DNA of 64,000 bases, taken from assembly GCA_000004985.1 (NCBI GenBank), contig GG738905.1. The stretch is one strand, 5' to 3'. Below, piece after piece: positions 31,381 to 56,695 of this stretch (its first letter is position 1; each line of letters opens with the position of its first letter). The notes beneath the pieces are model-generated. The model worked only from the letters and a program-made list of their open reading frames with translations, did no database searches and was not told where the DNA came from. The position numbers were made by a program, and so were the translations under genes. The stretch is from Naegleria gruberi (lineage: Eukaryota).

Positions 31381-33006
31381 ATGCAACAAGATGAAGAGAG
31401 AAATTTCTTTTCCTTGCTGAGCAATAATTCGGAAGAAGAATGGATGAATCATCCTCTCCTATTAATTTTCCTCATGATGAGTTTAATATTCGCCTTGTTC
31501 ATATTTAATTACAAGAAGAAGAAAACAATGAATAACACCATGATACAACAAATTGAAACTCTTGATTATTCATCAGTTGAAGAACAAATCAATGATGAAG
31601 ATGATGAAGAATTAATCAATGATGAAGACGATGAAGTAGAACAAGAACTTTCGAAAGATGAAGAATTACTTGCAAAAGTATCATCAACACAATTTGCAAA
31701 GGAAGAAGACACTTTAAATTATTCCATTTCGGAATCATCATCAGATGAAGAAATTGCACAAGAAGAACAACCGACAATAACAGAATTCAAGCAGGAATCA
31801 ACCACAAGAAGAACCTCAAGGAATAGTACTAATACTGATGAAGAAGCTCATGCAATTTCCTCTTCAACAACAACAAACATTGAAGCAGCAATTAATCATA
31901 ATAGATTGTTATTGCAACAATTGCAAAATTCATCCTCATCCTCTCATCAACACGTTTCAGCAACCTCATCTCCTCAGAAACAACAGCAGGGACATTTGCT
32001 TTCCACTCATTCCTTCCTTATGGTATGCTCAAAATGCAATAATCTCTTTGCTACCTTTATTCCACCAAAACAGGATTCAACATTGAAGGAGCCAGTCTTT
32101 CCTGAACGATTTAAAACACATCCATTCACATTTGGAGTTCTTTTAGGAGATAATAAGAGAAGAAATGTTGCATTTACACCTAGGTTTTCTGAGGAAGATG
32201 GAGAACAATTGTTTATTCCAACATTGTGTCAACCTGATTCGAAATATTTGGAAGAGGAATTTGATTGTAGGAAAATTCAAGAATCAGACCTTGCAGAAAT
32301 GAAAGATAAATGTAAAATGGCTAGGGATATGGGAAAACTATTGAGATTATTTTGTAAGAAGTGTGGAACTAAGGTTGGCTCAATTTTAAAAGAACCACTC
32401 CAATTGTCAGTTACTGAAGATATCAAATTACCTTTTAATACTTTTATGGATCAAGAGGATTGTTCCATAGTCGAGAAATGTCACTGCAACCATTCAGACT
32501 CAGTCGATATGAATACGTATATTAACAGTGAAAATATTGTCAATGTTTCAGATTCTTCAACATTTAGAAAAGTTTCTTTGGGTGAATGGAAGTATAGCTC
32601 ATTAGCTAGTATGCTTTTTGATATGCCAGACGTTCCACCAAAGAATTCATCAACTCACCATAACCGAAATAGGAATTACCACAATAATAATAGCAATAAC
32701 AATGGAAGAGGAAGGTTCCCACAAAGAAAGTTCAATAATAATCAACCACACAGAAGAAACAATCAAAGACCAAAATCATCCAATCCACAGCAACAACAAC
32801 AACAGAAACAGCAATCCTCTCAGAAAGTTCAATCACCACCACAACGAACACAAGAATCAACAACAACAAACAAAGAAGGTGGTGGCAAATCAAAGAAGAA
32901 GCGATCCCAAAAGAGAAAGAAAAAGAACAACTCCAATGAACCAGAAAATAAGAAGATTAAAGTTGAAGCATCAACCACTACCACTCCTTCAAATTCTCAA
33001 AATTAA
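31381..33006 (+). CDS. Acidic / Gln-rich low-complexity protein with CxxC pairs and a basic C-terminal tail
   Basis: The start is A-rich. The N-terminus has DDEDDEE tracts. The middle has CSKCNN...CKKCGTK...CHCNH, which may be a zinc ribbon. The C-terminus has a basic KKKRSQKRKKK run that looks like an NLS. Confidence 0.45.
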   Translation: MQQDEERNFFSLLSNNSEEEWMNHPLLLIFLMMSLIFALFIFNYKKKKTMNNTMIQQIETLDYSSVEEQINDEDDEELINDEDDEVEQELSKDEELLAKVSSTQFAKEEDTLNYSISESSSDEEIAQEEQPTITEFKQESTTRRTSRNSTNTDEEAHAISSSTTTNIEAAINHNRLLLQQLQNSSSSSHQHVSATSSPQKQQQGHLLSTHSFLMVCSKCNNLFATFIPPKQDSTLKEPVFPERFKTHPFTFGVLLGDNKRRNVAFTPRFSEEDGEQLFIPTLCQPDSKYLEEEFDCRKIQESDLAEMKDKCKMARDMGKLLRLFCKKCGTKVGSILKEPLQLSVTEDIKLPFNTFMDQEDCSIVEKCHCNHSDSVDMNTYINSENIVNVSDSSTFRKVSLGEWKYSSLASMLFDMPDVPPKNSSTHHNRNRNYHNNNSNNNGRGRFPQRKFNNNQPHRRNNQRPKSSNPQQQQQQKQQSSQKVQSPPQRTQESTTTNKEGGGKSKKKRSQKRKKKNNSNEPENKKIKVEASTTTTPSNSQN

Positions 33007-33056: not shown

Positions 33057-35036
33057 ATGTTTTCAAATCTACCACCAGAGATTTTGTACCAAATATTCGC
33101 GTACTATGTCAATCCGTATAATTTGATTGACAATTTGATGGTCTGGCGACAATTAAACATGTCAACCTATTCGATGCTCGAGACGAGTTCTACCTTGTCA
33201 CTATTATTGAACATGTCTATTCGTGATCCATTGGTATTGCAGGCTCCGAGCAGAACTAAATATTATGAACCGTATGGTTTTGTTTTGGATGCTGATAATT
33301 TAGATGATGATGATGATGATGAGGATGAAAAACTTGCATTGAAGAATGGTAATACGGAAGGAGTTGAAAATAATGCTCGTAAAGAAGAAGAAGAAAATAA
33401 TGAAGATGATGATGATGAGGAAGATGAAGAAGGAGAACAGAAATTATTTTACAATAGTCATTGTTTTATTGATCAATTGCTTTTACGTTCTTTACAAAAT
33501 CAATTTATTGGAAGAATGGGAAATAGAGATAAACATCATGAATGGAAGTACAAGACAAGGAATGGAGAGTTGTGTGATCCAAGTGAATATGATTGTTTCA
33601 AAGATGGCCCACAATTTCATGATAAGTTTGAGGAATGGATTGATGCCTACTCTGAGAAGAAGAGTTGGATTTTGCAATTATTGTTGGAAATTAGTCTTGG
33701 AAGGGAAATGATTGAGTATTTGGGGATGAGGAATGTTGGATTTTGCATTGTGCAATATTTTCACAAATTGTTCGAACCTGCCATTCGAACTGTTGAAAAT
33801 TGGAAGGAAAATCCAAAGTCAATTTTGGAATTTTCTGATATTTTCAATAGCAATTTATATGAATTGTTAGAGATGGCCATGAAGAAGGAAACAATTCTCA
33901 AGGATAACATGTCAGATTTCTGGTTTCAAATGGAAACAATTTCAAATTCAATTCCTAGACAAGTTATTTTGTTTATTGCTGAAAACTTTTCACATCTGAA
34001 TATTCGCTTAGGCGAGGGAGAGGAAATGACATGCTCTGTGTTTATATTCCAAGAACTGAGAAAGTTTGGTATTTGTGTGGAGAAGCTCCAATTCTTGGAT
34101 AAACGATCTAAATTTGGAAACTTTGAAAGAACTAGCTTTCTCAACTCGGTCATACCAGAAATTTCCGATGGGTTTTACTTGCAACACTTTGCTGTATGGA
34201 TTAAGAGCATTCCTCTATTAGAATGGTGTTTGGATGTAGATTCAACCCAAATGAATCAAACATTGGCCGAATGTTTACAAAAACCAAACCAATCAATTCT
34301 AAATGTGAAAATGAATTCCTATGCCAAAACCTATCTTGTTGACAAGCTACCATTTACTATTCTACACTATGCTGTATCGATGTGCAATGTTGAAATGGTT
34401 GAATTGTTGACCAACAAATATTTGGCAAATCCAGTGTTTGAAACTACATATCATGCAGTGAGTCCTCTCTCTTTAGCTATAAGAAATAGTAAGAATGTTG
34501 GAAAGGGAAGAAACAATGAAGAGGATGAAATTATGAAAATATTTTCCAAGCATTATCAAAGTGAAATTGAAAAACAAGGCACCAGTTCATCTGTGGGAAG
34601 TGAATCCAAAACTTTCGAAACTGATGGAAGAACGTATGAGGAAGATAATAGTGACCTAGATGAAGAATACTATTCAGATTATTCTTATGATATTCCTCCC
34701 CATCAAAATGTTGTTGTGGAACAATGGAATACTAAAATTTACGATACTCTTGGAGTCACTGACTTTAGTGACGATGAGTACGAGGAGGGATTAGATTTCA
34801 AGCAATTAGGCCACATTTTTAAAAACTTGGAAAATGAAGCAAATAATCCCCTCAAAAGAAAGAGATTTGATCCATTGGCATTCGAAGATTATTCACAAAA
34901 TTTCATTGAAAATAGATTGAAAAATACGATTGCACCTTTTGAATCCAATACATGGGATTACGACCTCAAGCAGGAGTTTGAAGGAGAGTTGACAGAAAAT
35001 ATTCCAGCCATTAAAATTCTGCAAGAGAAGGTGTAA
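33057..35036 (+). CDS. F-box / ankyrin-repeat protein with acidic tracts
   Basis: The start is A-rich. The F-box reads LPPEILYQIFAYYV. An ankyrin-like segment reads ILHYAVSMCNVEMVELLTNKYLANP...SPLSLAIRNS. The ORF ends 12 nt before the N gap. Confidence 0.55.
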   Translation: MFSNLPPEILYQIFAYYVNPYNLIDNLMVWRQLNMSTYSMLETSSTLSLLLNMSIRDPLVLQAPSRTKYYEPYGFVLDADNLDDDDDDEDEKLALKNGNTEGVENNARKEEEENNEDDDDEEDEEGEQKLFYNSHCFIDQLLLRSLQNQFIGRMGNRDKHHEWKYKTRNGELCDPSEYDCFKDGPQFHDKFEEWIDAYSEKKSWILQLLLEISLGREMIEYLGMRNVGFCIVQYFHKLFEPAIRTVENWKENPKSILEFSDIFNSNLYELLEMAMKKETILKDNMSDFWFQMETISNSIPRQVILFIAENFSHLNIRLGEGEEMTCSVFIFQELRKFGICVEKLQFLDKRSKFGNFERTSFLNSVIPEISDGFYLQHFAVWIKSIPLLEWCLDVDSTQMNQTLAECLQKPNQSILNVKMNSYAKTYLVDKLPFTILHYAVSMCNVEMVELLTNKYLANPVFETTYHAVSPLSLAIRNSKNVGKGRNNEEDEIMKIFSKHYQSEIEKQGTSSSVGSESKTFETDGRTYEEDNSDLDEEYYSDYSYDIPPHQNVVVEQWNTKIYDTLGVTDFSDDEYEEGLDFKQLGHIFKNLENEANNPLKRKRFDPLAFEDYSQNFIENRLKNTIAPFESNTWDYDLKQEFEGELTENIPAIKILQEKV

Positions 35037-35388: not shown

Positions 35389-36303
35389 TTAATCTGCAAA
35401 TCCAGAACCTCCATGGCTTGAGGAGCCACCTCCACCACCACCACCTCCTCCTCCAAAATCATTCGAAGTGGTATAATTGGTATCATTGAAAGAGGAATAA
35501 TTACCACCACTCCCATCACCACCATTTCCTCCACCACCTCCACCTTTTCTATTCCTCAAAACACAAAATAATATCAGACCTGTAAGGAGGAAAGTTCCAC
35601 CAATTACACTAAGGATAATGGCTGCATTGATGGCACTTTGGTCAATTAGGCATTTATCGTATTGGTTGGAATTGGTACGAAAGGTTACGGATGGGGTGTA
35701 TTGAGAAATGAGATTTGATTTCTGATAGAAAATGGAATATTGTTGATTGGAATTGAGTGTGAGAATTCCATTGCTGTCAGGAGTTGGGGGATTTGAGAAA
35801 TCAATAGTGGAATCAAAGATGAATGTGGAATTTAGATTTAAAATCTTGTAATTATCCTTGTAATAATACGAAACTTGATAAGCCTTTTGACTTTCAGTTT
35901 GGAAGAAACTGTTCGATCCAGAAATAGTATACGAAAGTTTAAAGGATAGTACAGTTATTCCATTTTCAGGAGTTGACGGCTCCAAATACAGTACTACATA
36001 TGGACTTTCACTAATTTTCTGATACTCACTTCTAATGTTATATCCATTATCCGAAACTAAAGTCACAGAACGATCATATGCATTGGAAGCGAGTGGAGGT
36101 AATGCTCTTCCAATTCTAGAAAAGGTTCCATTAAATTCATATTGAAAATATTCAACAATTTTCAATGAACAATCTCCGTTTCGAATATAAATTTCAGAAG
36201 AAAGTGATTGTAGTGAGTAGGATTTGGCAGTTGAAGAATTGGTCATGGCTGCTAGCAGCAGTAAAGCTATTAGAAATGCAGACAACAGGACGAAGATTCG
36301 CAT
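35389..36303 (-). CDS. Secreted / single-pass membrane glycoprotein with a poly-Gly cytoplasmic tail
   Basis: A signal peptide (MRIFVLLSAFLIALLLLAAM) precedes an ectodomain with many N-x-S/T sites, a TM helix (AAIILSVIGGTFLLTGLILFCVL) and Gly runs. Confidence 0.5.
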   Translation of the reverse strand: MRIFVLLSAFLIALLLLAAMTNSSTAKSYSLQSLSSEIYIRNGDCSLKIVEYFQYEFNGTFSRIGRALPPLASNAYDRSVTLVSDNGYNIRSEYQKISESPYVVLYLEPSTPENGITVLSFKLSYTISGSNSFFQTESQKAYQVSYYYKDNYKILNLNSTFIFDSTIDFSNPPTPDSNGILTLNSNQQYSIFYQKSNLISQYTPSVTFRTNSNQYDKCLIDQSAINAAIILSVIGGTFLLTGLILFCVLRNRKGGGGGGNGGDGSGGNYSSFNDTNYTTSNDFGGGGGGGGGGSSSHGGSGFAD

Positions 36304-37239: not shown

Positions 37240-39631
37240 AGCGTAAGTTTGGATTCACTTTGTTGACATTAAGATGTTAATTTTCGAAAATTCAGATGGT
37301 GAAATTGTTGAGTGCTACTCTTTAGAACCATTCATTGAGGGAGAATATCAAAAATATTTTAGTAATAGTGGAGAAGTGCCATGTATTGCGGCAGCCATCC
37401 AGTCTCCAGAAGTAATGGCATTATTCCAGACCTCCCAAACGTTCTCCCATTGGACATATGAAATAACCAAACAAAATTTAATAGTTACAGATATTCAGGG
37501 TGTGAAATATAGAATGACAGATCCAGCAATTTCCTCAGTAGGTCAATTATATGGAGAAACAGACACTGGTGAGGAAGGATTTAAAGACTTTTTTGAAGCT
37601 CACTATTGTAATGAACTTTGTTTAAAACTTGGATTGAAACATCCAAACGGTGATTTGTACATGGAACATCCATCTCTTCCAAAAACAATTTCAAACACAA
37701 TTGACCATGTAGACTTCTGTTCAGGATACTGTTGTGGAAACTATATTGAATACAAGATTGGTGAGAAAACACCAGATGGCACGCTTTTTTGCAACAAATG
37801 TAACCAGCGTAATAGTATAACTGAAAAGAAAGTTTGTAAAAAGAAAGGATGTTCCCTTAAATTTGAAATTGAAAGATGGTATTGGGTATCAACTGGAAAA
37901 CATCCACCAACCAAATGTCATCTACACAGAGGAACTATAGCATCTGAATTAAGGGATTGGAAGAAAAACAAAACCCTACCAAATGGAGCTCTCTTCACTC
38001 AAGAAGAAATGCAAAATCAATTAGATAAGGATCCAGATTTGAAAAAGCAATTTGAGAAGAGTATCATCCAAGAAAAGAAACCAGATTTATTTAATACTGT
38101 TGTTATTTCAAATCTCCCTGCTAGAACAAATTCCATGGATATCTTTAATATGCTTCCCCCTTTCTTCACTAATAGAAATCAGAAAGTGAAAGTCACTGAA
38201 CTTGAAGTGCCTTCAACCTTCAGCATTGAGTTTGAGAATGAACCAATTGCGTTAGAGGCATATCAAATTCTTGGATCATACATCCATAGAAGAAGATTAA
38301 TTGTTTGTAGACCTCTACAACACAAACATGAATCAGTGAAACTGGATAAAAGCTCCATCAATATTCAGTTGTCAAAGTATCCAAATGTTAAATGCAGTGA
38401 TATTTTACAATATTTCAAGGATTCGAATTACAAAATTCAAGACAAGTACTATGAGGAAAACAAGTTTGCAAATTTCACATTCTCTGATCCCTCAATAGCA
38501 CCAACCTTGGTCTCAAAAGGTTTATCTATTGATGGCACACTTGTTAAAGTTGTTTATAAGAAGGAGAAGCCAATTACTAAACAAGATGTACCACTAAAGA
38601 ATTTTAAGGAAAAGAAAATAGAAATTGATGAAAACGTTGACAAGACATCTGTACACATCAAATGGAGACCTAAAAATCCATCCGAATCTGTTCAGTTGCA
38701 AGAGATTGATCTTTTAAAACTTTTGAACCAATCTGACATTTTTAAGAAGAAATTCAATTCTGCTAAATCATTTATGCAAATTACTTTCAAATCAGAACAA
38801 TCTGCAGCATTATTGATTAAAAATGGTTTAAAGTTGCCAAACTTCAAGTTTACAATCAATTTCAAGAAGATACAAGAAAATGAAAGGAGCAATGATTGTA
38901 ATGAAAAACGAGTACAAAGTGAGGCCAAATCCAAAAAAGAAAAGCAATATCCAAAGGTTGTGGCAAACTCGCTTACTCCAACATCTGATTCAACTACCAA
39001 AAATCTTAAAAGCAATATTTCAACATCTAACAATCAATCACCCAAGCAACAAAATATTTCTAAAATGCAAAATTTGATGTTTGTTTTTGATATTAACACA
39101 CTTTTGAAAATTGGTAATTTACGTAATTTACTAGGACAATTTCTAGAAAACCACATCCAGTTTTGTGTTCCAGATATTAAATTGGACGAAATGAACGAAG
39201 ACACGTTTGCGGTTCAAAATTTAGTAGATGAATTCAAAGAAATCAATGTACAAGTTCCTGATGAATCAAATAATCTCACTTTAAGAACTCTTAAAGTAAC
39301 CAAAAAGGTGTCTGACAATTATCCAAATAGGAATGTTATGCTTGTGACAGATGATAAAGAATTGAAAGCTAACGCAGATAAATTCAGATTGAATGTTATC
39401 AATAGCTCAGCAATGAATCAATTAATTAGACAGTCAAGCGTAAATAATTCAGTACCAAAGCCAATACCATCAATTTCCAATCCATCACAAAAATCTACAA
39501 CTATTCCAACAACTAATACTGTTGAAACAATTATCATAGAACCATCTAATCAAAGAACAACCAACACACCTGTACCTGTTCCTGTTTTGCAAAGTATGAC
39601 CAAACTGATTAGTCATGGAAAGAGAAAATGA
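37240..39631 (+). CDS. Alpha-kinase (C-terminal half of the catalytic domain) - Cys/His-rich cluster - long Lys-rich linker - C-terminal PIN-like domain. The 5' end is lost in the gap.
   Basis: The frame is open from the gap. LEPFIEGEYQKYFSNSG ... TDIQGVKYRMTDPAI ... GETDTGEEGFKDFFEAHYCNELCLKL matches the alpha-kinase (eEF2K/MHCK) C-lobe, including DxQG, TDP and the Gly-rich and HxCN motifs. The Cys/His cluster is CSGYCCGN...CNKCNQ...CKKKGC...CHLH. The C-terminal FVFDINTLLK...CVPDIKLDEM...VMLVTDDKELKANA is PIN-like. Confidence 0.7.
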
Positions 39632-39772: not shown

Positions 39773-42700
39773 CTAATGGAGAGAAATGATAGCTTGTTTT
39801 TCCACATGTTGAGCACTTGAAGACATTCTCAAATTATCTAAACTCATTCTCAATGCAGAATCTCCTCCTCTAAAAACCTCCAAAGTTCCCTCCCTTAAAT
39901 CATCTTCCTTATTTGGTTCGTGAATGTATGTTTTCATTTGACCTTTTCCTTTCACTTCGACATATCGTTCTTGGAATTCGTGTTTATCTTTGAGTCGTTG
40001 ATAGCATGTTTCGGTTACTTGAATGAATCCTGCAGGGCATGTACTTTCCATTCTTGAAGCAGTCTTTGATAATGTTATTTAAATTGTAAAGTGTGAAAAA
40101 TAAACTTACATTCACAGCATCAGACCAGACATCGTAGGCATATTTCAATACTCCACAAACTCCTGCAACTATTGGTCCAGAGTTAATGCCAACTCTTATT
40201 CCAATATTCAATCCATGATCCTCACAAAACAATTGAACTACTTCTGACAACTTGACAGCAAATGTGAAAGTTCTTTCCACATGATGAGCTTCATTCATAC
40301 CATCAGGTTTCAATCCAGCAGTACAGAAATACTTGGATCCAATTGTCTTTATCTTTTCCAAATTGAAATTGATGGTCAAGTCATCAAATTCATGAATAAT
40401 TTCATTCAAAGTTTGAACCAAATCAAAAGCAGATAAATTCAAATCCAATAATCCAACAATATCACTAAACAAAATGGTTACATCATCGAACTTGTCAGCA
40501 ATCAGAGTTTCTCCTGCAATCAGACGTTGAGCTACACTCTCTGGCATGATATTCATCAAGAGAGATTCGCTTTTTTTCTTTTCCTCAGCTAGTTCCTTAA
40601 CTTGTACTTTGTGTTCTGAAATATCACGCATGAAACATGAAATGATGTTTCGTCCTTCTAGTGCCGAAACTGAAATTCTCAATTCAACTGGGAATGATGA
40701 AGAATTCTTTCTTAAACCATTTAGTTCAAGAGTTTCAGAATAGCTTGTGGCAGAAACTCCCATTTTGGAAATGACTGGTTCTAGATTGGCAGCTGATTCC
40801 TTGTCAAATAATTTGTGGAGTGGAAATCCAATAATTTGATCTCCTCTGAATCCAAATAACTTTTCAGAAGCATTGTTGAAAATGTCAATTGTGCCACTTG
40901 ATGAGCAAATGACAGCACTCGTTAAGGCAGCTTCTAGAATGGCTCTTTCTTTTGTCGTTTTGAATTTGTTTTTCGATCTGGACTTTCCATTAGATAAGAG
41001 ATGGAAGAAGATATAGTTTCGAATATCGTCATTGGTATCCAATATTTCCCATGGAATGTAATTGAACAATTTTCTGAGAACATAATTTTCATTCTCAATG
41101 GTAGAGGTATACGTGTAGGTAATCCATGTCAGAAATAGCAATAATGGACAACCTAGGACAGCTGACAGTATTGTCATCAATGGTTGTTCTTGGAAAAAGT
41201 TGTAATAACAGAGTTTGTTTAAGGTTTCCAAATTGGTGAGTAGTACTATGGAATGATCAAAGAGAAATTCTGCCAATTCATTGATTTGTTTCATTTCTAG
41301 AGAGATAGTTTCGTTTGAGATTAGTAATTGATTGAAATTCAAAATGCTAGTTCTGAACTGCCCTATTTGGGTATCCAAAGATTGACAATCAAAATGAGAA
41401 CAATTAGTTGGCAATGTCAATAATAAATTGTCGATATTCGGATTGAATCCACTCAAACTAAAGTAATCATCAATTTGAGAACCATATCTCAACATATTCC
41501 AGTTTCTGTCAAATAAACTCATATCTGCCAATAATCTGTCATGAAATTTAACTCTCTTCTCATAATCTGCAATTGAAGCTACTTGAAGAAGATCATATCT
41601 TAAACTCTGAGATATATGCATTGATTGTGCTGTAGATTCCAACTTGTAAAGTCCATGTTCCAATATTTTCAATTTTCTGAAAATATCAGCAACGATCAAA
41701 GACATGGTTGCTGTGGCCACAATGAAGGACAAACAAACAACAATTACCAAAAAACTATTGGATGAGATACTATCCTTTGTGGAGTCTACATTCGTACCAT
41801 CCTTATCAATCAATCTCTCCATTCCAATAATGACCTTCTTGGATTCGTCTTTTGGAATTTTCTTAAACAAGTTTAGGATTTGTTTTCTCTGGTGAAGGAA
41901 TTTAAAACTACAAAAACCATTGAAAATCAAATATAGAAAGAAAATTAATCCAATAAATGATGATAAGGCAATGTAAGCATATGAATAGTTCCTTAATTCG
42001 CCTTGTTGGAATTGAAGAGTTTTTTGGAAGAAATCTAACATTCCATCTGAGAATGCTACTCGATTCATTTCAATGAAATTCAATAATTCTTGACTGATCT
42101 TCAAGTTGGATGTGTTTGTGGAAATAATTGTTTCAGATAGAACTCGTTTCGTCTTTTTCACAAACCATGAAGTTGAGGAATTTTTGTAAACTTGATTATC
42201 AAGAAGGAGAGTCTTGTCTTGTTTAGTATACAATAAGGAAACCAATTCATTGAATGAGAAGGAATCGAATAGAGTTTCGAACGAGTCAATCTTTGCAAGG
42301 TCGTTTTCCAGAACGTTCTGAAATGATTTTCTATACTCTAAAGATGAGCTATAATTCAAAGTTGACATTGCTCCAATATTTCCATTCACATTCGAAACTC
42401 CACAAAGTGTAGAAGTCGGAATTGAACTCAACATGGCAGATTTCAACAAAATATCGAATACACTATCATTCTGTGTAAATGAAAGTCCAACAATTAACAA
42501 AATTGCAATCAACACAATCGAAACCAAACCAGAGCTCACAATAAAATAAAACGTCGTTCTATTCTCATCCTTCTTATGAAGTGCCGAGCTGAAAACTTCT
42601 TGTTGCTTATCAGCTTGATCCATCAACTCTTCTGGTTGTTGTTCACTTACAGAGATGGAATCAAAGGCCTCATCATTGACATTCTCACTGAACATGTCGA

Positions 42701-44705
42701 CTCTCATGCCGTTGTTGTTATTGCTGCTACTACTTGTGTAGCTCTTTGTTATGATGAGTTCTCCGTGTGTTTTATCTGATCTTTCATTATCTGAGTTGTT
42801 GTTATTGGATGAAGAATGTTGTGAGGATGGTTTGAATTTGAATTCTTCCTGATATTGAGCGAACATTTTCTGAATGGCATGATCTTCCTCATTGTCTATA
42901 AGGAGATTGTGGAAAGCTAGGTCGCATTCATTGGATAATCTTTGAATTTGTTGAACAATAGTGTCAACAGCAACAGAGGCCAATAAATTCTTCCAAAATT
43001 GGACAATTAGTAATCTAAGCATTTTGATTCTACGCTTCGTTCCCTCCATAATGATATCAGAGGCTCCCGAAGATGAAGTTCTCCCTTCAGATAAATTCTT
43101 TTCCAACTCTTTTGTTCGAATATAGAGAGAATATTGAATGAAAATGTTGGCTCTCTTTTTCTCTGCCTTCTTAATCACTATTAAGGCAAGAAAGAAGTTT
43201 GGTATTTCCTTGTAGAACATGGAAATGAGAATTAAACTCTGAGCATCATGGACTTCTGATTTGTGAACGATTCTAATGGCATCATTTGCTAATTTCTTAT
43301 CCTCATCCGATCCTTTCAATGAAAATTTAATAAAAGTTGACAAGTAAGGCAACTCTCTCTGTGTTAACAGGACATCAGATCCACAATTTACAATTGCCTT
43401 AGCGAGATGCGACCCCCTCCTCTTCACAGACTTGGAATAGAATTCCAATATCAGAAATCCAATCACGAAAAAGATGATTCCCAAAACAAGAGGTGAAAAA
43501 GTCAATCCCAATCCAAATTCCCACATGTCATCCACGTTGATGAGAGTACTCACGAGTGAGGCAATTCCTACTCCAACTCGAGCAAATCCAATTCCACCAT
43601 AAACTGCATTGGCTTTCCTCCTCAAGAATGGTAAATCGACAAACATCAAGACAATAAATCCAATAGAAAGAACAATATAATAGACAGGTCTCAGGAAATT
43701 GACTATATGAGGAGTCACTCCTGCCACAATCAAGTACAATTGATTCGTTCCAATCAGATAGCTCATCACGAATGGATTCTCCAAAACAAATTTGGCCTTA
43801 CTCGCCACCATCGTATCACAAAATATCATGACCGCGCTCATAGTGATCAGAATTTGAATGATACAGAACAGTAAACTGATACTAGCCAATATACCATTCA
43901 TCGTGCCCCAGCATTCCACATTTCTGAAATTCCTCAATGCAAATGAAGGTGGAGCTCCCTGAACAATAGAAACCTTACTAGTAAAATCACAATCAAAGAA
44001 ACCTTGCATGAGACCATAGGTTATTGGCAGAGAGAGGAAGGTCATTAGGAAGAAGACAAATCTACCTCCAGTTCTGATCTTTTTCCAATAAGAGCTACCC
44101 AGAATGATGGATCGGTAGGTAATGTAAATAATCAGAAAGCAAATTGACTGCATCACAAAGACAATCACTGCCAATGCAATAAATCCTTCATAGGGCAAGT
44201 ATTGAAATCCCAATGTTCTTGGTATGAGTAATATGTTATAAATGTATCTGCCATATTCACCCCAATTATAATCGATGGCCACTCCTAGTGAAAGCGTCTG
44301 ATAGGCAATCAGCATGTGTATCGAGAGACACATGAGTGGATGCAATGGTTTTTCCAATTTGAGTGATTGAACAAACATGAATAGTTTCCTAGTGATGGCT
44401 CCTTGATTGTCTGTTTGTGAAGGTTGTGAATTCACACCAGACAGTTCATCAGAAATTACATTAAAGTAACCACCTCCTCCTGCTGTTGTTTTTGTTATTG
44501 CTGCTGCTTGATTCCCTGAAGCATTATTAAGACTACTAGTACTTCCATTGATGGGAAGGATTGAGTTGGAGCTGGGAGCTTCGGAGAGTCTGTTAGTCGA
44601 TCGTCTGGAGAGAAAATTCGACCTCGTCTTGAGATTCCTTCCACTATTACTAGTATGAAGTGTATTGTTATTGTTATTATTTGAATTTGAATTTGATTTA
44701 TCCAT
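39773..44705 (-). CDS. Polytopic membrane protein with a PAS domain and a single C-terminal class III nucleotidyl cyclase homology domain. Exons are 44705..40110 and 40063..39773.
   Basis: The N-terminus is Asn-rich, followed by at least 8 TM helices, a roughly 300-aa loop and more TM helices. The PAS domain reads ILEAALTSAVICSSSGTIDIFNNASEKLFGFRGDQIIGFPL...FPVELRISV...CFMRDISEHK. The cyclase block reads FSDIVGL...EKIKTIGSKYFC...GIRVGINSGPIVAGVCG...YDVWSDAVN|TASRMEST. A 47-nt GTAAGT...CAAAG intron is present. Confidence 0.8.
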
Positions 44706-47994: not shown

Positions 47995-49812
47995 ATGTCC
48001 TTGCAAAGAAGTTTAGAAGCAATCAAGGGTTTGCATCCTGCTCCATTGTGGAATTACTTTGTCAAACTCTCCCAATGCCCACGTCCATCCAAGAAGGAAG
48101 AAAAGGCTATTGAATTTTTGAGAGCCTACGCTAAGGAAAATAACTTTGATATCAATGTTGATAATGTTGGCAATTGTTTGATCAAGGTTCCAGCTACTCC
48201 AGGCTATGAAAATACTCCAACTGTTGCTATTCAAGGACATATTGATATGGTTTGTGAGGTAGGTTTATTGTTGCTGTGTGGATTGTTTAAATGTTTGGAT
48301 TAATACTTTCATGTGATGATGAATTAATTTATTATTATTTATATATTTAAATATTTAATATATGTGATAATGTGATTTATAATCATCATGATGATAATGC
48401 AATTTCCATATTGAAAATCATGCAATTTCCTGTTGTTTCCATCAATTTATCTTCATCATCAATTTATATAGAAAAATGTAAGCTTTAACATTTGGAAGTT
48501 TTCTCATCACTCTATTACTCTAATCAAACTAATTTAAATTATTCATCATGCTATTTAATAATTATCATAATAGAAAACCACTCAACATGATTTTGACACT
48601 GATCCAATTACATTGATTCGTAGTCAAGATGGTGATTGGATTCATGCTGATGGTACTACTCTCGGATCTGACAATGGTATTGGTGTTTGTTGTGGATTGG
48701 CTCTTGCCACTGATAAGGATGTTGTCCACGGACCAATTGAATTGTTGTTGACCATTGATGAAGAAACTGGCATGTCAGGAGTTATGGCATTAAAGCCAGA
48801 ATTCTGTACTGCCAAGTATTTGTTGAATTTGGATGCTGAAGAACTTGGTGCTTTCTATGTTGGTTGTGCTGGTGGTCAAGATACTACTGCTTCTTTCGAT
48901 ATTGTTGAAGAAGAATTGGTTGACTCATCTTCATTTGAACAAGTTTCAATTATGGTTTCTGGTTTGAAGGGTGGTCACTCTGGTATTGATATTCACACTG
49001 GACGTGGTAATGCCATTAAATTGTTGGCCAGAACTTTGAAGCATGTTTTGGATGAAGTTCCATCTGATAATCTCAAAGTTTTCTATATTGAAGCTGGTAG
49101 TAAGAGAAATGCAATTCCAAGAGAAGCTTGGGTTAATGCCTATGTCAAGAAGGATAAATTGGAAGCTGTTAAGGAAAGAGTTGCTGCTTTTGAAAAGTTA
49201 GCTGTTTCTGAATTCAGTGTTCCAGAACCAAACTTGAAGATTTCTGTTGGTCCAGTTGAATCTGCCACTACTTCTACTAAGGTCTTTGCTAGTGAATTCT
49301 TGTCCAAATTGATTTCAGTCATCTTTGCTGTTCCTCATGGTGTTTTCCAAATGAGTCCAGTTATTGAAGGTCTCGTTGAAACCTCTACCAACTTGGCTAT
49401 TGTCAATACTCGTGATGGTAAGATTGAATTCTGTACTTCTCAAAGATCAAGTGTCAACTCTGCCAAGAACTACGCTGCTCACAGTGTTGCTTCTGTCTTT
49501 GCCTTGTCAGGTGCTGACGTCAAACACTCTGATGGTTATGTTGGATGGCAACCAGATATGAATTCTCCACTCCTCAAGTTATGTAAGGATGTTTACACTG
49601 AAAAGTATAAGGCTACTCCAGAAATTAAGGCTATTCATGCTGGTTTGGAATGTGGTTTGCTCTTGGAAACTTATCCAAACATGCACATGATTGCTTATGG
49701 TCCAACCATTGTTGGTGCTCACTCTCCAGACGAAAAGGTCAGAATTGCTGATGTTGCTCATACTTATGAATTGACCAGTGCTATTTTGGAAGCTATTGCC
49801 AAGAGTCAATAA
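47995..49812 (+). CDS. pepD: Xaa-His (aminoacyl-histidine) dipeptidase PepD, peptidase family M20C. Exons are 47995..48258 and 48574..49812.
   Basis: Colinear similarity to E. coli PepD runs end to end: LWNYFVKLSQCPRPSKKE against LWDIFAKICSIPHPS; HIDMVCE|KTTQHDFDTDPI against HLDMVPQKNNDTVHDFTKDPI; GTTLGSDNGIG, LLTIDEETGMSG, YVGCAGG, GLKGGHSG and IHAGLECGLL...AYGPTIVGAHSPDE all match. A 315-nt GTAGGT...AATAG intron interrupts at phase 0. Confidence 0.85.
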
Positions 49813-50491: not shown

Positions 50492-51923
50492 TTATTGATA
50501 GACAATTGTGGCTGATTTGGCAGCATACTCAACCAAGTTATGCTCGTTTTCGCCAACACCAAATGAGGTTTCAATAAATGCACACAACATTACGTTAAGA
50601 CCCTTAGGTTTAAAAATGTATAGCAAATGGTCAACTTCTGCAAAACCAATCCTCTTTACAAAATGGAAGTGGTATCGCGAAACTGAATCGAATGCACTAG
50701 CTCCAAATTTTGATGTGGCATCTTCATCCCTTACAATTGTCTCAATGCCATTGAAAGCATCATGGCTCAATTTGTGGAATAGCATATTTTCATATAGACC
50801 TTTTGTAAATTCGTAATCTTCATCTGTACATGAACTAATTTTCTGATAAACTATGGAGAGAATTTCAATTTGATCAGTTTCAGGACCGAGGCATCTGGTA
50901 GACCAAAATTCTGCTTCATAGTGGCTATGGCTATCCTTATTTACAGATTGTGCTTTCTTTACAATCCAATCGGCTGGAAGAAGAATGGTCAAATTCTTGC
51001 TTACAGATCTCTTTGTCCATCCCTTTACAAATTCATCAACATCAGAATTTTCCACAACAGGACGACTATTCGAGACGACACTATTACCATCCCAGTGACC
51101 TAATTCAATTCGAGCATGCTTATTACTCTCTTCGAGTAATAATGCTGCTGTAAAATGTTCGTTACGAATAATTTTAACTGATGCCTCAAGAGCTCCAGAG
51201 ATAGAGTTATCCTCCCTCAAAGAAGATAAATTTCCTTGTGATGCACTAGCCCTCAATTCGTGAGAGTCTGTATCTGGAGTACCGTTTGTATGATCAATTG
51301 TTGAACTATTGGAAGAAGTTGGAGAGCCAGGTCTAGAATTATGCATTCCCTTCATAGCAATCTTGATCGATTTTTCCACGTTCACACAACTCAAATCATC
51401 CCCATCCACATAAAAATCTCCTTCTGCAATCTTTTTATCCTTTCTCAATGTATGGGACTCCATTAATGTGAACCAAAATTTAATTCCATGCTGAGAACAT
51501 TCAATGGATGGAAAATCAAATTCTAATCACCATTAAATAATCAATATTGGAATCCAATATAAATTCAAAACAACTCTCAAAGAACTTACCTTGATTCCAA
51601 TTAAATACAAATTCATCTGTTTGATCATTGATCTTGACTTGAACTCCTGAAATATTATCATGAGATTCAATTGGTGTTGAGGCACATGATTCGGGATCAT
51701 AGGTTGACAATGCCTCATGACTATTTACACGATCCATTCCCAAATTTTCCAAACAAGGTGTCGATTTAACCTTAACAACTGTCTGTTTGTGACTCTTTTG
51801 ATCACAATGATGAGTTCCAGCCTGTTGTACCATCAAATAACATTTTCGTGGCAAATCCGCATGAGGAGCAAAGTGTCCAGCAAGAACTCGAAAATGTATT
51901 GAATCACCCTTAGCAAATACCAT
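50492..51923 (-). CDS. Conserved-looking hypothetical protein (two exons). No confident domain assignment.
   Basis: The N-terminal exon (MVFAKGDSIHFRVLAGHFAPHAD...) is joined by a GTAAGT...CTCAG intron to a 323-aa exon containing His-rich motifs (DSHSHYEAEFW, HFHFVKRIGFAEVDH). Confidence 0.45.
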
Positions 51924-52705: not shown

Positions 52706-55700
52706 ATGGACTCACACAATATCAGAGTTTTTCAATCACAAGATATTTTGTGCCCACACGATCTCGGACAGCCCTACTGCAGTGCTGCGAGTGATAGTTT
52801 ATTCTGGGTCGCATACAATGGAATTGTCAAAGGCTACTCGACACAAACAACACAGAAAGAGTTTCATTGCCTTTATGAATTTCAGCCTTTGTGGAATCAA
52901 GTGGATGCTATTCATTATTTGCCAGATATTAGGAGAGTAATTACGGTGGAAAGGAGAGTTTTATATTCATCATCTTCATCATCATTGAATGGAGGAGCAA
53001 CAATAACATCCTCTCCGATGAATAATAGTTTAAATGTTTTGGCAACATCATCAAATTTGACGGATTTTAAATCAAATCTCACGAGTGTTAATAATAATAA
53101 CAGTCAGGGAACAAATGGTGGAGTGAGTGTGGAGCAATGTTGTAGAGTTTATCATTTTGATTATGATAAGAAGGAGAGAAAGACAATAATTACACCTTCT
53201 ACATTACCGATTCAACATTTTACGACATTTGCTAGTGGAGATTCTTTAAATAGTGAATTGCTTATTTCTGTCTGTACATATAGTAATCAACTGTTGACTT
53301 GTGTGAAGGATGTTATTTCATTGTGGAAATTTACAAATCATGATACATCTGTTTGTGTGTTAAAACTTCACACTTCTTGGAATGTCAAGTGTATTTCTGT
53401 TTTTAACCAATTTATTGGGTACGGAACAACAAAAGATGTCCGTGTTGTGGAATTAAAATTAAAAGACAGTCAAAAGTTTGAATTTGTGGAGAATATTCAA
53501 GAGGATGACCTCATGGAAGAAGCTGAATTACAAAACAATGCAGAAATTCTCAACACTAAAAATCTATCACTATTGGATATTCAAAAGAAAATTCAATCAA
53601 GAATTCAGGATCAATTTATTGGACCAACTATTGAAACTCAATCCACACCAACCAGTACTTCCATTCTACAAAGGCAAAGAAATGGATCTGGTCCCCTCAC
53701 AAACAAGACAATGGCCATGTATTGGGGTAAAAGTCAATTGGAATCTAGTGACGAAATACAAATTCGTCTCGATATGGCAACCAAAGAATTACTTCCTTCT
53801 CCAGCCACTCAGAAATACAGTGAGGCTGTAGCAATAACACCTGAGGATAGAAAGAAGAAAAAGACTGCCATTACATTTTCAACTAATATTGCCTATGATA
53901 TTGTTGGAGAAACCACAACAGTCGATCACCCAGCTTTTGTAAATACTCACTACATGTAAGTTATCAATATTATTGACCTATGAATTTGTTTATTCATTAA
54001 TAATTACAGTGAGGCTTGTACCAATTTACTTCACAAACATTTCACCGATGAGGAAAGTCCAAGATCTATTCACTTTCTTCAAAACATTGCTCAAAAGAGA
54101 GACTTTAATCAAAATACAGGCATGAAATGTATTTTGAGTACTTCAACTTGTGGTTATGTTTATGGATTATCGAGTCCTCAACAATTACTTTGCGAATTTG
54201 AATATACAGGAGAATGCTTAATGAGTGCTGTCAATTCATTGTTCCTTTATGCTATTACACCAGTAGGATTGGAAATTTGGTCAGTTCTTGGCAGTAATAA
54301 TGGTTGCCTTCTCAGGTTCCATCCTTTCATTGGTCTCAAGAACGTCTCTGCCACAGACAAGCATGTCATTCTTCTCTCCAAGATGAGCAGCAACGAGAAT
54401 GTTTCCATTGCTGCCTATTATAACCAACAGACAGAGAAGACTGTTCTCGTGTCTGACATGAGAAGCATTGAGAAAGTCAGTAGAGCTTCAACAGCCAAAG
54501 AGGGTTCAAGAAGTGGCTCACTCCTACCAATTTTCAGTGCAAGAAGAAAAAAGGAAGAACCAAAATCCACAGCCCAACCAGTTGTTGAAGAATTTTCCTA
54601 TAACATTTATGCCCTGAACTCGGTAGAATTATGTGAAATTTATGAAGACATGCTCGAACATGCCATAATGTACAAGACCCAAGATAATGCCAAGTATATG
54701 AAACTTTTGAAGGAATCTCACAGCTTATTGCAATCAAAATATTTTGAACTTTTAGCAAAGGAAAAGAAATTGGATAGACCAGAGACAGATCCGGTCATTA
54801 TTTTAAAAACAAGAGTGGACTTGCAAAACTATACTACATTATTGAAGAGATCATTCGGATTAATAGGTGATACCTATGTTTCTGCTGGACAAATCGATAA
54901 GGCAGCCTATGCTTATTCGAATAGTGACAGACCAATCGATAATGTCTTTGAGAATTTGTCTGTTAGAGAAGAATCTCTTCTTCTCTTCCTGGATCATGTT
55001 CTCTTTGATAATGACATTAGCAATATGGAGAAGGTTTGCTCAGAAGAATTGGGTGATAAAATACTCTCCATTTACAGGCAAAGAACGCCACACAGATTGT
55101 CCAATGTCATCTTATCTGGTAGTATTAACTTTTCCAAGAGTCATGCCATCTCACTATTGCATGAAATCAGTGAAGAATATATCAAGGCTCAACAGACTGT
55201 TTCTCAACTTGAAATGAGTCAAGGAGAGCAAAACTGCATTGGAGAACAATCTTGGTTTGATATCATGCCTAAAGATGCAATTGTTCTTTCATTGATGCAA
55301 TTGAACAATGGAGAAGCTGAGCAAGCTATTACAATTTTAAGGTCTGTGGAAGGCAACTGTTTGGTTGACTTTTTGATCAATTATCCAAACTTGTTAACTT
55401 CACCAAGCGAGCCATTCTCCTTGTTTGCAAAAACTATTAGAGAATATGCTCCATGGTGTTTATTGGAAGCCCTTGTACGTTTGACCTCTGCTAATTGTTG
55501 TCCATTAGAAACTCAACACGTTCTCAATTTGCTGAAGGGAGAAGAAATCAAATTTACAGCTGAAGAACTTCCAATTACACCTCTTGTGATGCAACAAATC
55601 TACTTGTCCTCACTACTTATTGCTGGCGATTATACAAATGAGAAAATACTAATTGATAATGCTCTCCTATTACTCAAAGTATTCATATCGGAATTGGAAC

Positions 55701-56695
55701 AAGTAACTCTAACATTGAAGCAATCTGACATTGAGTTATTGGTCAAGTGTGTTAAGAGTAAGGTGGATTTGATTAATTCTTTGAATTCTCCTCAACCTTT
55801 CATGTCTCCTTCAGATATTTCATCAAATGAAGATATTATAGGTCAAGAGTTTGCTCCCCTCATCTCAAACCTTTCACAACTTCAAGATTTGAAGCAATAT
55901 TGTTCCTTCCTCCACTATTCATTTATTCCTTTCCGTGAAAATCTCAAATGGCCAAAAGAATTTGTAAATTATGAGTTTGAAAAGAATAGAGACTCGTTTG
56001 GAAATGTAAACTCTAAAACCCTCTCAGAAAAGTACAACGATGTTAATAGTATTTTAGAGAGCATTTCAATGGCAGATGCTACCCTCTTTTCTCTTACAGA
56101 GAATGACCCATTCCTTTTAATGATTCACTTGTTGTACAGTGCCCAAGGTTTGATTTGCTTCTTTGTTCAACTTCTTTCAGGAAATGGCGATCTTTTCCAA
56201 GAATTTATCAAGATTATTGAATCTTCCAACGCTCATTCTACAGTTGGTTTTGAGACTTTGAAAATTTTGTGTATGACTGGTTCAAAACAACTCAAGGAAG
56301 GCATTGAAAGATTATTTGAAATTCTTGGACAAGTGAATGAAGACAATGAAAATTTCAAATCTAAAATGGATGTTCTCTATGGATTCATTCAGGAACACTG
56401 CAAGAATGTTGAGGAATGGAAGTGTGTTCTCCAGTTAATCTTTGAATACATTCAACAAGTCGAATCAGTCAATACCCAAGATTCCAAGCCTGCCATCTGT
56501 CCTAAATTCCTCTACAATTTACTAGATCGTGTGTTGAGAAATTTGGCACTTACCAACACTCCTGAGGAATTCCTCACTCTAATCCCAAAGAATGGCAGTA
56601 TGAAATTCTTCTTTACCTACATTCAATTGTGTTATTCACATTTCACAATGAATATTACCAACAATACCAATCTCCTTAATTTTGAAATTTTGTAA
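52706..56695 (+). CDS. Large protein of about 1,310 aa, likely beta-rich at the N-terminus and alpha-solenoid at the C-terminus. Function unknown. Exons are 52706..53955 and 54010..56695.
   Basis: The start is A-rich. The two long ORFs are joined by a 54-nt GTAAGT...TTACAG intron with the correct phase. No diagnostic motif was recognised. Confidence 0.55.

What the first reader, a model, noticed from the sequence alone, without database searches (positions are those of the whole stretch)
39773..44705. Polytopic membrane - PAS - single C2-type cyclase homology domain protein lacking the second metal-binding Asp
The protein is about 1,630 aa. It has an Asn-rich N-terminus and two clusters of TM helices separated by a roughly 300-aa non-catalytic loop. 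A bona fide PAS fold and a coiled linker follow. There is one class III cyclase domain. In that domain the first metal Asp is present (FSDIVG). The second is replaced (EKIKTIGSKY instead of IGDxY), exactly as in the C2 halves of mammalian tmACs. The ATP-specifying Lys/Asp pair (IKTIGS ... YDVWSD) and the transition-state Asn/Arg pair (VNTASRMES) are retained. As a homodimer, this combination would give sites with incomplete metal coordination. The protein is therefore either a regulatory pseudo-cyclase, an obligate heterodimer partner, or an unusual enzyme. The topology (12-TM-like, but with C1 replaced by a non-cyclase loop and PAS inserted) does not match ACA, ACG, ACB, GCA or sGC as I know them.
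Basis: partly seen in the sequence, partly recalled or inferred. Interest (0 to 1): 0.72.

Follow-up and report, generated by a model that had tools for sequence, protein, structure and literature searches.

The report
Half-site membrane adenylyl cyclase of Naegleria
This is a Naegleria gruberi receptor-like membrane adenylyl cyclase whose catalytic domain has lost part of its metal-binding half, and because the same genome also encodes a sister protein with the opposite defect, the two probably have to pair to make cAMP, much as the two halves of animal adenylyl cyclases do.

Summary
The minus-strand gene at 44705..39773 has one 46-nt intron and encodes a 1628-aa protein. It is identical to N. 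gruberi XP_002671507.1 (NAEGRDRAFT_73533), annotated only as "predicted protein". It has one class III cyclase domain. In that domain the first metal Asp (D1415), K1453, D1525, N1532, R1536 and KGKG are present. The second metal Asp is Ser1457, and the P-loop Thr is also lost (GFT to GLL).

The organism is a heterolobosean, not a dictyostelid. The layout is 8 TM, a TmcB-type TPR region, two TM-flanked helical-bundle ectodomains, PAS and the cyclase domain. This layout is standard for a large heterolobosean cyclase family and is distantly related to trichomonad TMACs.

Two things are new. The defect marks a conserved clade: 10 of 10 members have Ser or Glu at the second metal position and have lost the P-loop Thr, and wherever the sequence is complete K, D, N, R and KGKG are kept. 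A second clade has the mirror-image defect, with both Asp intact, Asn changed to Thr/Ile and Arg changed to Lys. It includes N. gruberi NAEGRDRAFT_69664.

The best reading is a C2-like subunit of a heteromeric cyclase. This is inferred from sequence and has not been shown experimentally.

The parts
39773..44705 (-). Whole gene (CDS plus one intron). It encodes 1628 aa and equals N. gruberi NAEGRDRAFT_73533 / XP_002671507.1.
40064..40109 (-). 46-nt GT..AG intron between the codons of N1532 and T1533. It separates the transition-state Asn and Arg.
   Evidence: The spliced product is identical to the database protein.
44346..44705 (-). Asn/Ser-rich, basic N-terminal tail (aa 1-120), inferred to be cytosolic.
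   Evidence: Sequence; positive-inside reasoning.
43431..44345 (-). N-terminal bundle of 8 TM helices (aa about 121-425). It has an extracellular beta-hairpin loop carrying the invariant Cys239/Cys265 pair.
   Evidence: Hydropathy. AF2 model, pLDDT 80-90 in this part. Invariant Cys columns. No PDB counterpart.
42546..43430 (-). Cytosolic TmcB-type TPR region (aa 426-720) with a disordered Ser/Asn-rich tail.
41121..42545 (-). Sensor module (aa 721-1195): TM9, ectodomain 1, TM10, short cytosolic loop, TM11, ectodomain 2 (Cys1102/Cys1107), TM12. Both ectodomains are helical bundles.
40614..40946 (-). PAS domain (aa 1254-1364).
   Evidence: Pfam PAS_9, E 9.8e-16. The closest solved relatives are the FixL/DosP haem-PAS domains, but the proximal His is not conserved.
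40500..40613 (-). Helical linker / cyclase transducer helix (aa 1365-1402). The PAS-to-FSD spacing is fixed at 49 aa in the 17 family members where it could be measured.
   Evidence: Weak HNOBA C-terminal hit.
39923..40499 (-). Class III cyclase homology domain (aa 1403-1579, intron included), of C2-like type.
   Evidence: Pfam, E 2e-47; PDB alignments; residue table.
40335..40337 (-). Ser1457 (TCC) at the position of the second metal-binding Asp.
40443..40463 (-). D1415-I-V-G-L-L-D1421. The first metal Asp is kept, the P-loop GFT has degenerated to GLL, and there is an acidic residue at +6.

Best explanation
The protein is a receptor-type membrane adenylyl cyclase subunit of the heterolobosean 'TmcB-TPR / PAS' family. 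Its catalytic domain works like a mammalian C2 domain. It supplies the adenine-specifying Lys/Asp, the transition-state Asn/Arg and the KGKG lysine. It cannot supply a complete two-metal, phosphate-binding half-site, because Ser replaces the second Asp and the P-loop Thr is lost.

Class III active sites form across a dimer interface. It should therefore be productive only when paired with a subunit that brings an intact Asp/Asp plus GFT half. The prime candidate is the mirror-image 'C1-like' paralogue in the same genome, NAEGRDRAFT_69664. That protein has both Asp and the P-loop Thr intact, but Asn is changed to Thr and Arg to Lys.

Such a heterodimer would have one canonical ATP site and one degenerate, possibly regulatory, pseudo-site. 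Signals would enter through the two extracellular helical-bundle domains and the PAS domain of each subunit, and pass down the 49-residue helical linker.

Shown: the residues, the two clades, and the co-occurrence of both types in N. gruberi and in Willaertia magna.
Inferred: the physical pairing, the activity, and the signal path.
For: 1. Residue pattern. All 10 members of the clade that contains the window protein have Ser or Glu at the second metal position and a non-Thr residue in the P-loop. These members come from N. gruberi (2), N. fowleri (4), N. lovaniensis (2), Willaertia magna (1) and one metagenome. All keep the substrate Lys and Asp. Wherever the sequence is complete and not mis-spliced, they also keep Asn, Arg and KGKG.
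2. Ser and Glu forms are interleaved in the tree. The carboxylate was therefore lost more than once, as expected if this half-site is not under selection.
3. The clade has 93.5% bootstrap support, and 82.5% with the signature columns removed.
4. A second clade (100% bootstrap) has the mirror pattern: D, (G/N/Q)FT and D are kept, Asn is changed to Thr/Thr/Ile, and Arg is changed to Lys. Its members are N. gruberi P0355 (NAEGRDRAFT_69664), Willaertia P0138 and metagenome locus L004. The motif WGENVTLASKMES is read from one continuous exon in L005.
5. N. gruberi and Willaertia each encode both types.
6. All 23 other heterolobosean family members examined are fully canonical. The two defects are therefore specific and do not reflect general decay.
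7. The P0138 membrane module is the closest full-length relative of the C2-like clade outside that clade.
8. Experimental analogue. Rv1625c D300A (second metal Asp) and R376A (transition-state Arg) are each inactive, but together they form an active dimer (PMC4821796; residue roles in PMC4174876).
9. The PAS-to-catalytic linker is exactly 49 aa in both clades, so in-register pairing is possible.
Against: - No interaction, expression or activity data exist.
- The catalytic-domain tree does not support the two clades as sisters (about 25% bootstrap).
- I could not find, or test for, a C1-like orthologue in N. fowleri or N. lovaniensis.
- The first metal Asp is kept in all 10 C2-like members, whereas mammalian C2 lost it. 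This hints at residual metal binding.
- Glu-type members might still bind metal.
- An acidic residue at +6 (D1421) is present in 9 of 10 C2-like members and could be a substitute ligand.
- Any of the many canonical paralogues could equally complement the defect, so the specific partner is not established.
Confidence: 0.55

Rival explanations
1. Regulatory pseudo-cyclase. The protein forms homodimers that bind ATP or another nucleotide but do not turn it over. It would act as a receptor or scaffold, or as a dominant-negative partner that titrates active paralogues.
For: The second metal Asp and the P-loop Thr are missing. The equivalent Rv1625c D300A mutant is inactive alone. The Swin subclade also has a 2-residue deletion after the P-loop.
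Against: K, D, N, R and KGKG are strictly retained across Naegleria and Willaertia wherever the sequence is complete. That is hard to explain if catalysis is never needed. A mirror-image clade exists in the same genomes.
Confidence: 0.15
2. Unusual but self-sufficient enzyme. The homodimer is active with altered metal ligation, for example Mn2+ dependence, water-mediated binding through Ser1457, or D1421 at the start of helix alpha-1 standing in for the missing carboxylate.
For: The first Asp is kept in 10 of 10 members. An acidic residue occupies +6 in 9 of 10 C2-like members, against 2 of the 27 canonical members listed and none of the 3 C1-like ones. Glu-type relatives keep a carboxylate at the second site.
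Against: The P-loop Thr that contacts the phosphates is lost as well. Ser and Glu alternate within the clade, so the carboxylate is not conserved. One member has Gln at +6. I had no model coordinates with which to test the geometry.
Confidence: 0.15
3. Promiscuous heterodimer. The protein pairs with any of the canonical family members and has no dedicated C1-like partner. Each such dimer would have one competent site.
For: At least 23 canonical relatives share the same domain order. The 49-aa linker was measured in 6 of them. A canonical partner supplies everything that is missing.
Against: It leaves the conserved Asn/Arg-deficient clade unexplained. That clade also needs a partner.
Confidence: 0.15

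Closest known systems
C2 domain of mammalian membrane adenylyl cyclases (AC5, AC9, AC2)
   Same: It gives the best PDB sequence matches. Ser sits at the second metal position inside the same EKIKTIGS motif. K, D, N, R and KGKG are kept. The domain is predicted to need a partner that brings the metal Asp pair.
   Different: It lies on its own polypeptide and is not fused to a C1. The first metal Asp is retained. The membrane part is 8+4 TM with a TPR domain, ectodomains and PAS, rather than 6+6 TM. It arose independently inside a heterolobosean family.
Rv1625c (M. tuberculosis Cya) complementing point mutants D300A + R376A
   Same: The same two positions are affected, and the logic is the same: each half-defective homodimer is dead and the mixed dimer is active.
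   Different: Those are laboratory mutants of one gene. Here the two states are natural, conserved paralogue clades.
Heterolobosean TmcB-TPR / PAS cyclase family (Naegleria, Willaertia, Pharyngomonas; annotated 'predicted protein' or 'hypothetical protein')
   Same: The whole architecture is shared, and the membrane module is clearly homologous.
   Different: All 23 other members examined have a fully canonical catalytic domain. This protein belongs to the metal-site-deficient clade.
Trichomonas transmembrane adenylyl cyclases (TMACs; PMC2914791)
   Same: [quoted passage not shown] The TPR_TmcB-type region is homologous (hhalign probability 91.5%, E 8.8e-7). Recombinant TMAC domains make cAMP.
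   Different: BLASTP of the membrane parts is not significant. In the two TMAC-like relatives compared, from Tritrichomonas foetus and an unnamed assembly, both metal Asp are kept and the other half-site varies instead (Asp to Glu, Arg to Gln).
Separate-chain heterodimeric class III cyclases (sGC alpha/beta; chytrid RGC1/2 + NeoR, PMC8815786)
   Same: Two membrane or soluble subunits on separate polypeptides form one active and one pseudo-symmetric site.
   Different: RGC1 and RGC2 keep all catalytic residues. The sensors are different, and none of these families is related through its sensor parts.

Membership tests
Class III nucleotidyl cyclase (Pfam PF00211) | Cyclase homology domain scoring above the curated threshold | tested here: met
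   161.6 bits against a cut-off of 21.9, aa 1403-1579. PDB hits reach E 2e-60.
Self-sufficient homodimeric class III adenylyl cyclase | First metal Asp | tested here: met
   D1415
Self-sufficient homodimeric class III adenylyl cyclase | Second metal Asp (Rv1625c D300, the Asp of the C1 (L)GDCYY motif) | tested here: not met
   S1457, codon TCC
Self-sufficient homodimeric class III adenylyl cyclase | P-loop GFT with the phosphate-binding Thr | tested here: not met
   GLL here. GFT or NFT in all 27 canonical sequences compared.
Self-sufficient homodimeric class III adenylyl cyclase | Substrate Lys/Asp, transition-state Asn/Arg, KGKG Lys | tested here: met
   K1453, D1525, N1532, R1536, K1570
Mammalian-type tmAC (pseudo-heterodimer) | C1 and C2 in one chain, each preceded by a 6-TM bundle | tested here: not met
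   One cyclase domain only. The membrane part is 8+4 TM with a TPR region, ectodomains and PAS.
Heterolobosean TmcB-TPR / PAS cyclase family | Homologous N-terminal membrane module | tested here: met
   phmmer of aa 100-1240 gives 99 hits, 24 of them below 1e-30. All named hits are from Naegleria, Willaertia or Pharyngomonas.
Heterolobosean TmcB-TPR / PAS cyclase family | TPR_TmcB domain between the two TM clusters | tested here: inconclusive
   [not shown]
Proposed C2-like clade of that family | Second metal position Ser or Glu, P-loop Thr lost, other half-site intact, monophyletic | tested here: met
   10 of 10 members; bootstrap 93.5% (82.5% without the signature columns).
Obligate heterodimeric cyclase | Physical pairing with a complementary subunit, and activity only in the pair | not testable with these tools
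   Only the existence of a complementary paralogue (NAEGRDRAFT_69664) is shown.
Dictyostelium cyclases ACA / ACG / ACB / GCA / sGC | Orthology and domain order | tested here: not met
   The sequence is N. gruberi. No dictyostelid protein appears among the hits that were given names.
FixL-type haem PAS | Proximal His on the F-alpha helix | tested here: not met
   The FixL His aligns with Leu in the HMMER alignment.
Four-helix-bundle / NIT-type extracellular sensor | Antiparallel helical-bundle ectodomain between two TM helices | tested here: inconclusive
   [not shown]

The most novel reading that the evidence does not exclude
Heterolobosean amoebae independently re-invented the animal C1/C2 solution, but on two separate receptor-like polypeptides. 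One 'C1-like' 12-TM/PAS subunit (NAEGRDRAFT_69664 type) would serve as the common catalytic partner for several 'C2-like' subunits (this gene and its paralogues), each with different ectodomains. cAMP would then be made only when two different sensors are brought together. That would be a combinatorial, coincidence-detecting cyclase system.
Probability: 0.4. Interest if true: 0.65.

Novelty: new variant of a known kind. Interest (0 to 1): 0.5.

Why it matters
Naegleria carries roughly 80-100 cyclase genes (PMC9928731). In the searches I made I found no biochemical work on these membrane cyclases. Suppose part of this expansion consists of complementary half-enzymes.

- Gene counts would then overstate the number of independent cAMP sources.
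- Signalling specificity would lie in which subunits pair.
- It would be another independent origin of the asymmetric one-active-site, one-pseudo-site dimer seen in animal tmACs and sGC. That speaks to why this asymmetry keeps evolving.
- The same clade exists in the pathogen N. fowleri, in at least three genes (L001/L003, L002, FDP41_009812).

The hypothesis can be tested directly with two recombinant catalytic domains. If it is false, this remains an ordinary, slightly degenerate member of a lineage-specific family.

Tried and rejected
- Second cyclase domain or partner nearby: none in the gene or the window. None of the ten neighbouring ORFs scanned is a cyclase; those with a Pfam hit are an alpha-kinase, an M20 peptidase, an HPS3-like protein and an ABC1 kinase.
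- Mis-translation or a hidden intron creating the Ser: rejected. The Ser codon lies inside the 4.6-kb exon. The model equals the database protein. The same Ser is read from N. fowleri genomic DNA at two distinct loci, L001/L003 and L002.
- Dictyostelid origin: rejected.
- C1-like and C2-like clades as sisters: not supported by the catalytic-domain NJ tree (about 25% bootstrap). Only overall similarity of the membrane module points that way.
- Pharyngomonas P0185 (Thr/Glu at the metal sites) does not group with the C2-like clade. It is probably an independent loss.
- Two JGI metagenome scans for further C1-like genes found no relative: nothing, and only bacterial PAS proteins of about 30% identity.
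- The locus of N. gruberi P0001 is not on record, so its mis-spliced 3' end could not be repaired.
- BLASTP of the membrane part against trichomonad TMACs was not significant. Only the profile comparison was.
- Literature: no paper mentions either locus tag or accession. A search for Naegleria cyclase heterodimers returned nothing relevant among the 10 best of 161 papers.
- Geometry of D1421 as a substitute metal ligand could not be tested, because model coordinates are not exposed.
Full report
**What is there**

The finding sits on the minus strand. Two ORFs, 39984..44705 and 39773..40051, are joined by a 46-nt GT..AG intron at 40109..40064. The spliced CDS is 4887 nt and encodes 1628 aa. This protein is residue-for-residue identical to Naegleria gruberi XP_002671507.1 / EFC38763.1 / UniProt D2VWX0, locus NAEGRDRAFT_73533, annotated only as "predicted protein".

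The window is therefore N. gruberi (Heterolobosea) and not a dictyostelid. Its roughly 33% G+C and sparse short introns fit that. No paper in the searchable library mentions the locus.

**Checking the observation**

Pfam finds one Guanylate_cyc domain (aa 1403-1579, E 2e-47), one PAS_9 domain (1264-1364, E 9.8e-16) and a weak TPR_TmcB hit at 554-627. tblastn with the catalytic domain finds no second copy in the gene or anywhere in the 64 kb. None of the ten neighbouring ORFs scanned is a cyclase.

Against solved structures the domain aligns best with the C2 halves of AC9 and AC5 (115 and 107 bits) and less well with their C1 halves (about 90 bits). In those alignments Ser1457 lies under the Asp of C1 "(L)GDCYY" and under the Ser/Ala of C2 "IKTIG(S/A)TY". 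Multiple alignments give the full signature:

| Position | State in this protein |
|---|---|
| First metal Asp | D1415, present |
| P-loop | G-L-L in place of G-F-T |
| Position +6 after the first Asp | D1421 |
| Just after the P-loop | two-residue deletion |
| Substrate Lys | K1453, present |
| Second metal Asp | S1457 (TCC) |
| Arg on beta-4 | R1504, present |
| Substrate Asp | D1525, present |
| Transition-state Asn | N1532, present |
| Transition-state Arg | R1536, present |
| KGKG Lys | K1570, present |

The intron falls between N1532 and T1533 and has no bearing on the Ser.

**Anatomy of the rest**

Three lines of evidence agree on an 8 + 4 TM topology with the N-terminus inside:
- hydropathy;
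- two AlphaFold models built on family alignments: aa 105-720, pLDDT 71 overall with 80-90 in the membrane part, and aa 715-1200, pLDDT 80 and pTM 0.77;
- basic residues in the predicted cytosolic loops and conserved Cys pairs in the predicted outside loops (C239/C265, C1102/C1107).

The PAS domain is closest to the FixL/DosP haem-PAS domains (E 1.6e-7), but the FixL proximal His aligns with Leu. Its ligand is unknown.

**The family**

An exhaustive phmmer search of aa 100-1240 against 1.84 billion representatives returns only 99 proteins. Every hit that carries a name is from Naegleria, Willaertia magna or Pharyngomonas.

The architecture is thus the ordinary one for a lineage-specific cyclase family and is not peculiar to this gene. 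Its TPR region is also homologous to that of trichomonad transmembrane adenylyl cyclases (hhalign probability 91.5%, E 8.8e-7). Recombinant catalytic domains of those enzymes make cAMP (PMC2914791).

Of the heterolobosean family members with a readable catalytic domain, 23 are canonical at every diagnostic position.

**The defect defines a clade**

Ten sequences share a non-Asp residue at the second metal site and a non-Thr P-loop:
- the window protein;
- N. gruberi P0001;
- N. fowleri P0013 (loci L001/L003), P0015 (L002), P0362 and P0357;
- N. lovaniensis P0002 and P0014;
- Willaertia P0137;
- metagenomic P0370.

The second metal site is Ser in five and Glu in five. All keep the first Asp, the substrate Lys and the substrate Asp. 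They also keep Asn, Arg and KGKG, except where a gene model is truncated or reads through an intron.

In a neighbour-joining tree of 197 catalytic-domain columns they form one clade. Bootstrap support is 93.5%, or 82.5% with the ten signature columns removed. Ser and Glu forms are interleaved, so the carboxylate was lost more than once. The state predates the Naegleria-Willaertia split.

Two things argue against simple pseudogenisation: the degeneration is confined to one half-site, and the other half-site is strictly conserved.

**The mirror image**

A second clade (100% bootstrap) has the opposite pattern. Both metal Asp, the P-loop Thr and the beta-4 Arg are intact. The transition-state Asn is Thr or Ile and the Arg is Lys. 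Members:
- Willaertia P0138 (…WGETVIVGSKMES…);
- metagenome locus L004 (…WGDTVTLANKMES…);
- N. gruberi P0355 = XP_002675302.1 / NAEGRDRAFT_69664 (…WGENVTLASKMES…).

The motif is read from a continuous exon in the near-identical metagenomic contig L005, so it is not a splicing artefact.

P0355 has the same domain order (TPR_TmcB, PAS, cyclase). N. gruberi and Willaertia therefore each carry both a "C2-like" and a "C1-like" form. The membrane module of P0138 is the closest full-length relative of the C2-like clade outside that clade (E 2e-105). The catalytic-domain tree alone does not support the two clades as sisters (about 25% bootstrap).

**Mechanism proposed**

In class III cyclases the active site spans the dimer interface. 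One subunit gives the two metal Asp and the P-loop. The other gives the base-specifying and transition-state residues. In mammals these are C1 and C2 (PMC4174876).

For Rv1625c, the D300A mutant (second metal Asp) and the R376A mutant (transition-state Arg) are each inactive. Together they form an active, regulated dimer (PMC4821796, citing Guo et al. 2001). The window protein is a natural D300-type variant and NAEGRDRAFT_69664 is a natural N372/R376-type variant.

The simplest reading is that they, or the window protein and some canonical paralogue, form a heterodimer with one complete ATP site and one degenerate pseudo-site. The PAS-to-catalytic linker is exactly 49 residues in both clades and in the canonical members where it could be measured. 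In-register pairing of the transducer helices is therefore possible.

Lys/Asp at the specificity positions predicts ATP as substrate. Separate-chain heterodimeric membrane cyclases have a precedent in chytrid RGC1/2 + NeoR (PMC8815786).

All of this is inference from sequence. No interaction or activity has been measured.

**Rivals**

1. A non-catalytic pseudo-cyclase homodimer. This leaves the intact Asn/Arg/Lys/Asp/KGKG set and the mirror clade unexplained.
2. A self-sufficient enzyme with unusual metal ligation. In its favour are the retained first Asp and an acidic residue at +6 in 9 of 10 clade members, against 2 of 27 canonical sequences and none of the 3 C1-like ones. Against it are the lost P-loop Thr and the Ser/Glu alternation.
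3. Promiscuous pairing with canonical paralogues. This is compatible with everything except that it leaves the C1-like clade without a role.

**What could not be settled**

- Whether N. fowleri and N. lovaniensis have a C1-like gene.
- The true 3' end of P0001.
- The fold class of the 8-TM bundle.

**Verdict**

It is partly off target, because the organism and comparison set were wrong and the topology is family-standard.

The gene is an already-deposited but uncharacterised protein. The new element is the pair of complementary, conserved half-site clades, which makes a heteromeric Naegleria cyclase a concrete and testable hypothesis. I rate it a new variant of a known kind, of moderate interest.

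Noticed in passing
window 40614-40946 (-), aa 1254-1364: The PAS domain's closest solved relatives are the haem-binding PAS domains of FixL and DosP (E 1.6e-7). The FixL proximal His aligns with Leu, so any cofactor or ligand is of a different kind.
   Followed up: partly
[not shown]
   Followed up: partly
window 40443-40445 (-), D1421: An acidic residue sits six positions after the first metal Asp in 9 of 10 C2-like proteins. It is rare elsewhere (2 of 27 canonical sequences, 0 of 3 C1-like). It may be a compensating ligand or simply a clade marker.
   Followed up: partly
N. gruberi protein P0001 (2426 aa; paralogue, not in the window): Its gene model reads through the intron that, in the window gene, lies right after the transition-state Asn (…DAVNAASLEVATES…). 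It then continues into unrelated sequence. This is probably a fused, mis-annotated model.
   Followed up: partly
L001:4989-10171, L002:3411-8828, L003:9001-14399 (N. fowleri GCA_008403515.1): The N. fowleri orthologues are annotated as two separate genes each, a membrane part and a PAS-cyclase part. The contigs behind L001 and L003 are 99.8% identical over 12.9 kb, so they are haplotigs or a very recent duplication.
   Followed up: partly
P0185 (Pharyngomonas kirbyi transcript, 1519 aa): This deep-branching heterolobosean has a family member with both metal positions changed (Thr and Glu) but K, D, N, R and KGKG intact. It does not group with the Naegleria/Willaertia C2-like clade, which suggests an independent origin of the same half-site loss.
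   Followed up: partly
window 37274-39631 (+): An alpha-kinase-domain gene (Pfam E 3.9e-34; the domain match starts at profile position 81, so an upstream exon is likely) converges on the cyclase gene. The two stop codons are about 140 nt apart.
   Followed up: no
window 54122-56695 (+), 58324-60483 (+), 48613-49812 (+): The other neighbours with a Pfam hit are ordinary eukaryotic genes: HPS3-like, ABC1/COQ8-type atypical kinase and M20 peptidase. Several ORFs of 300-650 aa have no Pfam hit (33057-35036, 31381-33006, 35389-36303, 50492-51463, 52706-53959).
   Followed up: no
family-wide: The distance from the PAS 'DI(S/T)' motif to the 'FSD' of the cyclase domain is exactly 49 residues in the 17 family members where it could be measured. 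The exception is P0001, with 50. This implies a rigid helical transducer of fixed register.
   Followed up: partly
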